A stretch of DNA of 64,000 nt from Octopus vulgaris (taxonomy: Eukaryota): positions 46,066,001-46,130,000 of the forward strand of contig OX597833.1 in the NCBI GenBank assembly GCA_951406725.2, written 5' to 3'. This document shows positions 5,830 to 23,257 of this stretch, one piece after another (position 1 is the first letter of the stretch; each line of letters starts with the position of its first letter). The notes under the pieces were generated by a model. It did no database searches. It had not been told where the DNA came from and was given only the letters and a program-made list of their open reading frames with translations. Made by a program: the position numbers and the translations under genes.

Positions 5830-6670
5830 TGAAGTGAATGGCTTAGGGGTTAGGGTATTGGACATATGATTATAAGATTATGGTTTCGATCCCTGGACCA
5901 GGTGATATGTTGTGCTCAAGAGCAAAACACTTCATTTTATGTTGCTCCAGTCCACTCATCATCATCATTTAGCGTCCGCTTTCCATGCTGGCATGGGTTG
6001 GATGGTTCAACTGGGGTCTGGGAAGCCAGAAGGCTGCACCAGGCCCAGTCTGATCTGACAATGTTTCTACGGCTGGATGCCCTTCCTAACGCCAACCACT
6101 CCATGAGTGTAGTGGGTGCTTTTTACGTGCCACCGGCAGAGGTGCCAGACGAGGCTGGCAAACGGCCACGATCGGATGGTGCTTTTTACATGCCACTGGC
6201 ACGGAGGCCAGGCCAGGCTGGCAATGGCCACGATTGGATGGTGCTTTTTATGTGCCAGTCGGCATGGCGCTGGCAATGGCCACGTTCGGATGGTTCTCTT
6301 ATGTGCCACCGGCACTGGTATCACAGCTACAATTTCCATTGATGTTGATCGATTTTGATTTTCACTTGCCTCAATACATTTTCACAAGTAGAGTTTTGTG
6401 TCCCAAGAAGGAAAGGTATGCATAAGTGGACTGAGGCCATGGGTTATGGCCTCACTATTCCTGCCGGGTCTTCTCAAGCACAGCATACTTCCAAAGGTCT
6501 CAGTCTCTAGTCATTTCCTCAGTGAGACCTAAAGTTCGAAGGTCATGCTTCACCACCTCATCCCAGGTTTTCCTGGGTCTACCTCTTCCACTCAGTTGTA
6601 GAAATGAGTTTAACCTGGAGAGGGATGGGCTCTACCAGGCTTTCTCACCAAATATACACTGCATGGCTGC
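5830..6670 (+). mobile_element. SINE family C interrupted by an RTE insertion
   Basis: Head TGGCTTAGGGGTTAGGG...GGTTTCGATCCC and body GAGCAAAACACTTCATTTTATGTTGCTCCAGTCCACTCA. The body resumes at 6591 (CTCAGTTGTAGAAATGAGT). Confidence 0.75.
5959..6590 (-). mobile_element. 5'-truncated RTE-clade LINE (ORF C-terminus, 3' UTR, (GAT)n tail)
   Basis: Minus strand reads GRGRPRKTWDEVVKHDLRTLGLTEEMTRD*DLWKYAVLEK. It ends ...CCAGCATGGAAAGCGGACGCTAAATGATGATGATG. TCCACTCA is duplicated at 5951-5958 and 6587-6594. The UTR has about 60-bp subrepeats at 6115-6320. Confidence 0.85.
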
Positions 6671-21914: not shown

Positions 21915-22190
21915 TTGTTCACTGGGAGTGTTTCACCATTTTACCAGTGCATCCGTGTAACGTAGTGTGGTGGAGAGACTTGAAGAAATATAGGGTTTGC
22001 CACATCAGTTTCCTAAAAAGCAGCACGAAATTTTCAAAAAGTAGCGGGTTATATAGCAACGTGGCTCAAAAGGATATTTTTTCTAGTAAATGATATAAAT
22101 ATATTATGGAGATGTACTTGCATAGCGAGTGACTTGATCTGAGATCGTGTGCTGGAATGAAAACAATTGCAGCGTGGAAGGTGTTTATAA
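21915..22190 (-). repeat. Inverted copy of 22978-23257 (sequence downstream of the G3-C8 hammerhead)
   Basis: Reverse-complement match over about 280 bp; the ORF-track peptides at 21896 (+) and 23079 (-) are near-identical. Confidence 0.9.
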
Positions 22191-22784: not shown

Positions 22785-23257
22785 CAAAATCGTTAGATTC
22801 ACTTCAACATTTAAATTTAATTAAAATATTTTCGTCGCTTTGAGACCGCGACCTGTTCACTGCTGCACGAAACTTTGTCAGTGAACAGGTCGCGGTCTCA
22901 AAGCGACGAAAATATTTTGACAAATTAAATTTAAATGTTAAAGTGAATCTAACGGTTTTGTGTGTTTCTTAAATGGCTTATAAACACCTTCCACCCACTC
23001 TGCAATTGTTTTCGTTCCAGCACACGATCTCAGATCAAGTCACTCGTTATGCAAGTACATCTCCGTAATATATTTATATCATTTACTAGAAAAAATATCC
23101 TTTTGAGCCACGTTGCTATATAACCCGCTACTTTTTGAAAATTTCGAGCTACTTTTTATGAAACTGATGTGGCAAACCCTATATTTCTTCAAGTCTCTCC
23201 GCCACATTAGGTTACACGGATGCACTGGTAAAATGGTGAAACACTCCCAGTGAACAA
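22785..23257 (+). mobile_element. PLE-like fold-back element with hammerhead and downstream extension
   Basis: Inverted arms 22785-22862 and 22879-22960; adjacent to a short (TA)n. Confidence 0.7.
22874..22924 (+). ncRNA. Minimal type-I hammerhead candidate with G3-C8 compensatory core
   Basis: Stem I TTTGTCA/TGACAAA (7 bp); core GTGAACA at 22881-22887 plus an extra G; stem II GTCGC/GCGAC; GAAA at 22908-22911; palindromic ATAT stem III; UU site. Confidence 0.65.

What the first reader, a model, noticed from the sequence alone, without database searches (positions are those of the whole stretch)
22874..22924. Natural G3-C8 compensatory swap in a hammerhead core
Seen: TTTGTCA-GTGAACA-G-GTCGC(GGTCTCAAA)GCGAC-GAAA-ATAT-TT-TGACAAA. 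The core GUGAACA differs from CUGANGA only at positions 3 and 8. The same core is present in the inverted left arm (22825-22862), so it predates the fold-back. The 5' strand of stem I lies mostly in the spacer, so its pairing is not a by-product of the inverted repeat. Established: C3 and G8 form a tertiary Watson-Crick pair in the active fold, and compensatory double mutants recover some activity. Inference: this is a naturally covaried ribozyme that CUGANGA motif searches would miss.
Basis: partly seen in the sequence, partly recalled or inferred. Interest (0 to 1): 0.85.

Follow-up and report, generated by a model that had tools for sequence, protein, structure and literature searches.

The report
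Swapped-core hammerhead in Penelope retroelement family
More than a thousand copies of a jumping gene in this animal genome carry a hammerhead-shaped RNA motif with two paired core letters swapped (G-C where sister elements keep C-G), likely a slow self-cutting RNA, though cutting is untested.

Summary
The motif is real. It is the minimal hammerhead in the pseudo-LTR of a Penelope-like (Neptune-type) retroelement with at least 1,173 exact copies. The window holds a short fold-back copy without the ORF. G3-C8 is fixed: 94 of 100 listed copies, none C3-G8.

Two sister families in the same genome carry the same motif with C3-G8. Metagenome relatives carry C3-G8 or U3-A8. Position 3:8 is Watson-Crick in 11 of 11 aligned motifs, so G3-C8 is most likely a derived compensatory swap.

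Activity is unproven and probably low. Only 1 of 86 arms starts at the predicted cut. The core has an extra G and a UUU triplet. Relatives tolerate A9C and G5U.

Natural U3-A8 and engineered G3-C8 are published; my ten literature searches found no natural G3-C8, but five key papers could not be read. This scan had already noted G3-C8 hammerheads in protist Penelope elements and in phages. Verdict: new variant of a known kind.

The parts
22874..22924 (+). Minimal type I hammerhead motif with G3-C8 core
   Evidence: sequence; fold; descriptor scan against shuffles; covariation across relatives
22881..22888 (+). Core 5' strand: G3 (22881), C8 (22886), A9, extra G (22888)
   Evidence: sister families have C3/G8 here
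22889..22907 (+). Stem II (5 bp, closing G10.1-C11.1) and 9-nt loop II; the loop varies between subfamilies
22908..22917 (+). GAAA, 6-nt palindromic helix III (22911-22916) and UUU triplet; cut predicted 3' of 22917
   Evidence: sequence; position inferred from hammerhead numbering; cleavage not tested
22861..23069 (+). Short non-autonomous copy of the Penelope-like element: pLTR end, hammerhead, and about 60-nt tail (23012-23069) ending in AT-rich target DNA
   Evidence: same unit lies about 1.1 kb behind the RT/GIY-YIG ORF and directly before the ORF in tandem copies
22973..23069 (+). First codons of the element's ORF (truncated here by the tail end)
   Evidence: in L274 the same ATG opens the reading frame that continues into the element's protein
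22785..22862 (-). Inverted second arm (equivalent of 22879-22960) with an incomplete hammerhead
   Evidence: with the right arm it folds a -77 kcal/mol hairpin
21915..22190 (-). Local inverted duplicate of 22978-23257 (element tail plus flank), specific to this locus

Best explanation
This is the minimal hammerhead in the pseudo-LTR of a Penelope-like retroelement, with G3-C8 fixed across the family where sister families keep C3-G8, and it likely works as a slow, dimer- or protein-assisted self-cleaving RNA. Shown: the motif lies behind the RT/GIY-YIG ORF and, in tandem copies, about 55 nt before the ORF's start codon; its stems and the 3:8 pair covary across related elements. Inferred: G3-C8 replaces the C3-G8 tertiary pair, keeps a 2'-OH at position 8 and leaves G12 intact. 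The 6-nt palindrome would let two RNAs form helix III in trans, so cleavage 3' of U22917 would happen only now and then, trimming tandem precursors, while most RNA stays uncut and serves as mRNA and template. The window copy itself is a by-product of transposition; read-through of both arms would bury it in a long hairpin.
For: Family: 1,173 exact 34-mer matches with 3 and 8 left free, control 0; of the 100 listed, 94 G3-C8, 6 single-copy variants, 0 C3-G8. In arms picked by an anchor outside the motif, G3 48 of 49 and C8 47 of 49. No variant reached 3% at 22881 or 22886 in four runs from four organism labels. ORF link: 530-aa frame upstream on the same strand, GIY-YIG hit, 1,025-aa frame. Sisters: old family with the canonical core and the same layout, tied to RT/EN fragments 37-43% identical over the longer stretches; young family, 57% identical protein, C3-G8; together they form the sister group of the G3-C8 family at 99/99. 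Metagenome relatives: C3-G8 in L362, L363, L367 and U3-A8 in L361, L365. Structure count: 3:8 paired in 11 of 11 rows, 92% of all cells paired, 0 of 500 shuffles as high. Young versus old subfamily: 0 changes in 42 stem/core nt against 5 in the 9-nt loop II. Engineered C3G/G8C partly restores cleavage in a Penelope hammerhead, which cleaves only with protein present (PMC11167929 passages).
Against: No cleavage data exist here. Only 1 of 86 arms begins at 22918, while 49 reach 22874 or further upstream. Stem/core conservation is not significantly higher than in the downstream 145 nt (p=0.35), and the five loop changes may be one or two events. The extra nucleotide is G, which the published consensus CUGANGAH excludes. 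Relatives carry A9C (L349-L360, L361) and G5U (L365), so selection may not be on catalysis. The swap is a single evolutionary event in this lineage. Alignment A2 was hand-picked from sequences with a visible motif.
Confidence: 0.6

Rival explanations
1. The hammerhead fold is kept for a non-catalytic job, such as binding or dimerising with the element's reverse transcriptase or setting the RNA's 5' architecture. The 3:8 pair is conserved as structure, and cleavage is negligible.
For: Uncut RNA is what gets copied: 1 of 86 arms starts at the cut. Very young, abundant sister copies carry A9C; L365 has G5U with intact stems and U3-A8. In the anole element hammerhead mutants still insert in vitro and no RNA reads end at the cut (PMC11167929).
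Against: G12, A13, A14, U4 and A6 are invariant in 11 of 11 rows. A tertiary 3:8 pair is a feature of the active fold (PMC3884650 and PMC8495972 passages). In the anole element the minimal RNA needed for insertion lies inside the ORF.
Confidence: 0.25
2. It is a dead hammerhead. G3 and C8 arose as two separate inactivating changes in a master element and spread by copying, complementary only by luck.
For: All copies descend from few masters, so fixation alone proves nothing. C-G to G-C needs two transversions through a mispaired state. CpG decay in stem II runs at about 3-6% per site in laid contigs, as for neutral copies.
Against: All other core letters and all stems are kept between families whose flanks show no significant alignment. 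G3-C8 persists in much older copies (72-78% identical downstream) in which N7 and loop II have changed (found by a pattern that required G3 and C8). 3:8 is complementary in 7 of 7 families in which both positions were left free.
Confidence: 0.12
3. The resemblance to a hammerhead is chance or a by-product of the fold-back repeat.
For: Rfam gives no hammerhead match; the locus is a long inverted repeat.
Against: 0 hits in 100 resampled windows; position and layout match canonical-core motifs in sister elements; Rfam also misses those canonical motifs in 5 of 5 loci.
Confidence: 0.02

Closest known systems
Minimal type I hammerheads of Penelope-like elements (min-HHR; Cervera and de la Pena 2014, PMC4209133; read parts 1-2 of 4 and a term search of the supplement PDF)
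   Same: Sits in the pLTR; extra nucleotide between 9 and 10.1; G10.1-C11.1; palindromic helix III; copies on opposite strands close together; low activity expected; a natural 3:8 covariation (U3-A8) is already described in Schistosoma.
   Different: 3:8 is G-C; the extra nucleotide is G (consensus H); helix III is a 6-nt palindrome; I saw no G3-C8 family in the parts read (figures not visible).
PAc hammerhead of the anole Poseidon element (Frangieh et al. 2024, PMC11167929; passages and first part of main text)
   Same: Near the pLTR-ORF junction; two reverse-transcription starts give a tail; uncut RNA is the main template; engineered C3G/G8C partly rescues cleavage.
   Different: PAc is natively C3-G8 and overlaps its ORF start. 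Here the swap is natural, the motif lies upstream of the ATG, and the protein has a Neptune-type cysteine linker.
Natural hammerhead core variants (Perreault et al. 2011, PMC3088659; section 8 read)
   Same: Natural covariation at 3:8 and a U15.1-A16.1 swap (seen here in relative L363) are described, with reduced but detectable activity for some.
   Different: Only U3-A8 is reported there for 3:8.
Neptune/Nematis EN+ Penelope-like elements (Craig et al. 2021, PMC8557442; passages)
   Same: RT, CX2-5CxxC linker, C-terminal GIY-YIG, pLTR with tail, inverted 5'-truncated copies, AT-rich targets.
   Different: Clade placement was not tested against named references; that study's core search used the string cuganga and would not return this family.

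Membership tests
Minimal type I hammerhead of PLEs | Helix I closing the motif, helix II with G10.1-C11.1 | tested here: met
Minimal type I hammerhead of PLEs | Literal core C3-U-G-A-N-G8-A | tested here: not met
   G3 and C8; fixed in copies
Minimal type I hammerhead of PLEs | Watson-Crick complementarity of positions 3 and 8 | tested here: met
   G-C here; 11 of 11 rows complementary; physical pairing itself not tested
Minimal type I hammerhead of PLEs | U4 G5 A6 A9, G12 A13 A14 A15.1, U16.1 and H17 not G | tested here: met
Minimal type I hammerhead of PLEs | One unpaired nucleotide between 9 and 10.1 | tested here: met
   G22888; described in PMC4209133
Minimal type I hammerhead of PLEs | Extra nucleotide is H (not G) in the published consensus | tested here: not met
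   G in 11 of 11 rows of this clade; consensus CUGANGAH
Minimal type I hammerhead of PLEs | Palindromic helix III allowing dimers | tested here: met
   22911-22916 is self-complementary; predicted duplex is very weak, -0.2 kcal/mol
Minimal type I hammerhead of PLEs | Located in the pLTR of a PLE, sense strand | tested here: met
Minimal type I hammerhead of PLEs | Self-cleavage 3' of H17 | not testable with these tools
   only contigs were available; indirect genomic test shows no peak at the cut
EN+ Penelope-like element, Neptune type | Single ORF with RT and C-terminal GIY-YIG | tested here: met
   GIY-YIG PF01541 E 1.6e-5; RT read from motifs in the translation and homologue names; Pfam RVT_1 did not hit this ORF
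EN+ Penelope-like element, Neptune type | CX2-5CxxC linker before the endonuclease | tested here: met
   translation; feature from PMC8557442
EN+ Penelope-like element, Neptune type | pLTR, tail and inverted truncated copies; AT-rich targets | tested here: met
   48 of 86 arms end within 2 nt of 23069 and 25 of 86 end 57-64 nt earlier; next 12 nt are 86% AT
EN+ Penelope-like element, Neptune type | RT phylogeny with named Neptune references | not tested
   the tree holds no named reference

The most novel reading that the evidence does not exclude
In this clade of Penelope-like elements the hammerhead is a catalysis-optional module: the fold and a Watson-Crick 3:8 pair are kept in all three forms (C-G, U-A, G-C) while other core letters drift (A9C, G5U), because the RNA must mostly stay uncut and the motif serves as a protein-gated switch or binding site for the reverse transcriptase.
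Probability: 0.25. Interest if true: 0.75.

Novelty: new variant of a known kind. Interest (0 to 1): 0.5.

Why it matters
It supplies the natural G3-C8 form of a tertiary pair known from structure and engineered mutants, fixed in a high-copy animal retroelement with C3-G8 sister families as a built-in control. String-based hammerhead searches undercount such families. The set of natural core variants found here (G3-C8, U3-A8, A9C, G5U, U15.1-A16.1) makes an open question testable: do Penelope hammerheads need to cut at all?

Tried and rejected
Rfam: nothing at gathering threshold in the window; only sub-threshold hairpin families at E<=10; no hammerhead hit in 5 canonical-core loci either.

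Coding constraint as the cause of the swap: rejected. No frame through the motif stays open in the young subfamily, loop II has a 1-nt indel between subfamilies, and the ORF starts downstream.

The 263-bp outer inverted repeat as part of the element: rejected; 23080-23257 has only its local duplicate and 7 weak partial matches.

Phage scan for a G3-C8 core with this stem II start: 38 hits, 1 weak full motif (L344), treated as chance. It says nothing about other phage layouts.

A cap-derived G or a spliced first exon at the sharp 5' end near 22858: could not be separated from fold-back junction sequence.

One search used a mis-indexed structure string and is void; one search is the corrected count. 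The exact genome-wide count of C3-G8 copies inside the family was not obtained (one search gave no answer). Laid RNA run X15 is contigs only and may be DNA, so it shows neither expression nor RNA ends. Search of earlier findings by sequence gave nothing. No structure or complex prediction was run.

Full report
Observation. Stem I has 7 bp, stem II 5 bp with the usual G10.1-C11.1 pair, helix III is a 6-nt palindrome, and the core differs from CUGANGA at 3 (G22881) and 8 (C22886), with one extra G at 22888. The predicted fold contains stems I and II (z -2.5). A descriptor accepting any Watson-Crick 3:8 pair finds only this site in the window and none in 100 resampled windows. The left arm (22785-22862) has the core but lacks the 5' strand of stem I and has a 4-nt deletion in the 3' strand. 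It is a second copy of the same element, not independent evidence.

What it belongs to. The window lies in a 2.8-Gb genome. A protein that its source names as Octopus vulgaris matches this genome at 100% over the 128 residues tested, so the host is probably an octopus. The motif is part of a dispersed unit, 22861-23069: 1,173 exact matches to a 34-mer with 3 and 8 free and 3,588 to a downstream 26-mer, controls 0. Many loci are fold-back pairs. Arm 3' ends fall in two clusters, 48 of 86 within 2 nt of 23069 and 25 of 86 some 57-64 nt earlier, followed by 86% AT DNA (21 of the 86 arms are one re-amplified composite). This matches the tail made by two reverse-transcription starts in Penelope-like elements (PMC11167929, passages and first part of the main text). 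Longer copies carry, about 1.1 kb upstream on the same strand, an ORF with RT motifs, a CX3CxxC linker and a GIY-YIG domain; Pfam RVT_1 did not hit it. In L274 the unit runs on into the ORF, whose ATG corresponds to window 22973. So the motif is in the pseudo-LTR and, in tandem copies, the 5' leader of a Neptune-type element; the clade name rests on features from PMC8557442 (passages), not on a tree with references.

Is G3-C8 fixed? Yes. Of the 100 matches listed, 94 are G3-C8, 2 G3-T8, 2 T3-C8, 1 G3-G8, 1 A3-A8 and none C3-G8. Among 86 arms chosen by an anchor downstream of the motif, the 49 that span the core have G3 in 48 and C8 in 47. None of 30 loci chosen by an upstream anchor is C3-G8 (one lacks the motif). 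In contigs of four runs with four organism labels no variant reached 3% at either position. The young ORF-bearing subfamily differs from the window's subfamily at 15 consensus positions: 5 in loop II, 3 in the leader, 7 downstream, none in the 42 stem and core bases. Against loop II this gives p=5e-5, but against the downstream region p=0.35, and the loop changes may be few events. Older copies, 72-78% identical downstream, also read G3-C8 with a different N7; they were found by a pattern that required G3 and C8.

Is it a compensatory swap? A canonical-core pattern gave 351 matches against 82 control, most of the listed ones from one old family with the same layout. Four of its 20 loci examined hold RT/EN fragments, 37-43% identical to our ORF over the longer stretches, upstream on the same strand, while the flanking DNA shows no significant alignment. 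A young family with 57% protein identity has C3-G8 and A9C in 11 of 12 loci. Of 9 metagenome relatives, 5 show the motif in the non-coding flank of the ORF: C3-G8 in L362, L363 (read by eye; it has U15.1-A16.1) and L367, U3-A8 in L361 and L365. L364 showed none, and L366, L368 and L369 lack the region behind the ORF. The RT/EN tree places the G3-C8 family as sister (99/99) to the two C3-G8 families of the same genome, with C3-G8 and U3-A8 elements outside (L245, L260, L366, L368, L369 left out; three rows fragmentary). On 11 hand-picked motifs the 3:8 pair holds in all (7 C-G, 2 G-C, 2 U-A), 11 of 12 pairs show double-sided changes, and 0 of 500 shuffles reach the score (rows are related, L362 is out of register in its 3' half, and three rows were found with C3 and G8 required). 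In the 7 families where 3 and 8 were free, all are complementary; by hand arithmetic a random re-pairing would do so about 1 time in 105, ignoring kinship. G3-C8 is therefore most likely derived from C3-G8, once in this lineage.

Does it cut? Not shown. For: all other core letters are canonical, and in the anole element engineered C3G/G8C partly restores cleavage that single mutants lose, in the presence of protein (also PMC8495972 passages). Against: if cut RNA were a common template, copies should start at 22918, and 1 of 86 does. Cleavage followed by re-ligation, or loss of cut RNA, would leave no such trace. Minimal Penelope hammerheads are weak in vitro and need dimers (PMC4209133, parts 1-2 of 4). 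The extra base is G where the published consensus has H. That UUU is a poor triplet and that an extra G lowers the rate is recalled, from no call. Relatives tolerate A9C and G5U. The window copy has no ORF, and a transcript through both arms would form a -77 kcal/mol hairpin.

Mechanism. Most likely (0.6): a slow ribozyme, active only as a dimer or with the element's protein, that sometimes trims tandem precursors while most RNA stays whole. Rivals: a fold kept for a non-catalytic role (0.25), a dead relic (0.12), chance (0.02).

Novelty. Minimal Penelope hammerheads and natural U3-A8 are published (PMC4209133; PMC3088659 section 8). Ten searches returned G3-C8 only as an engineered variant (PMC3884650 passages; PMC11167929; PMC8495972). 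I also saw passages of PMC6765202, PMC6155905, PMC2920678, PMC6257768 and PMC10085705 and part 1 of 5 of bioRxiv 10.64898/2026.07.22.740005, without a natural G3-C8. Five papers were not held: Lunse 2017, Hammann 2012, Martick and Scott 2006, Przybilski and Hammann 2007, Lee and York 2008. They, the figures, and the supplements I did not read could hold an earlier example. This scan's own unchecked notes list G3-C8 motifs in four other Penelope-like elements and three phage cases, so the variant recurs. What this locus adds is fixation at high copy number in an animal element and a sister-family control. Verdict: new variant of a known kind, interest 0.5.

Noticed in passing
L349-L360 (for example L355:2654-2703 +): A very young, abundant sister Penelope family (open frames up to 1,312 aa, tandem period about 4.6 kb) has a C3-G8 hammerhead with A9C in 11 of the 12 loci read; L358 lacks the motif.
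   Followed up: partly
L361:2490-2539, L363:4966-5018, L365:284-330: Metagenome relatives with further core variants: U3-A8 plus A9C; C3-G8 plus U15.1-A16.1; U3-A8 plus G5U, all with intact stems.
   Followed up: partly
upstream of the 22861 equivalent, for example L092:7140-7165: 998 copies (up to 1 mismatch) keep a branch-point, pyrimidine tract and YAG sequence just before the unit, and short copies start within a few bases of it. It may be an intron end, a transcription start or a reverse-transcription stop; a short upstream ORF runs through the hammerhead.
   Followed up: partly
L040, L041, L049, L056-L058: One fold-back copy with an arm starting at 22884 has been re-amplified inside a larger repeat of about 2 kb or more with long inverted arms (21 of 86 sampled arms).
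   Followed up: no
L094 (+2452-2492, +5921-5961, -3005-3048, -6460-6503, -8368-8408): A roughly 3.5-kb tandem repeat carries hammerhead-like motifs with U3-A8 cores on both strands.
   Followed up: no
L244:1494-1538 (-), L270, L101:3124-3169 (-), L106:663-704 (-): Other canonical-core minimal hammerhead families in the same genome; L090 and L095 also hold unrelated Poseidon-like RT frames.
   Followed up: no
L370-L379: Much older G3-C8 copies with a different N7 and mostly a 7-nt loop II; downstream similarity to the unit in several; no ORF found in the short flanks held.
   Followed up: partly
window 21915-22190 and 22978-23257: Locus-specific inverted duplication (95-96% identical) that includes the element's tail and flank.
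   Followed up: partly
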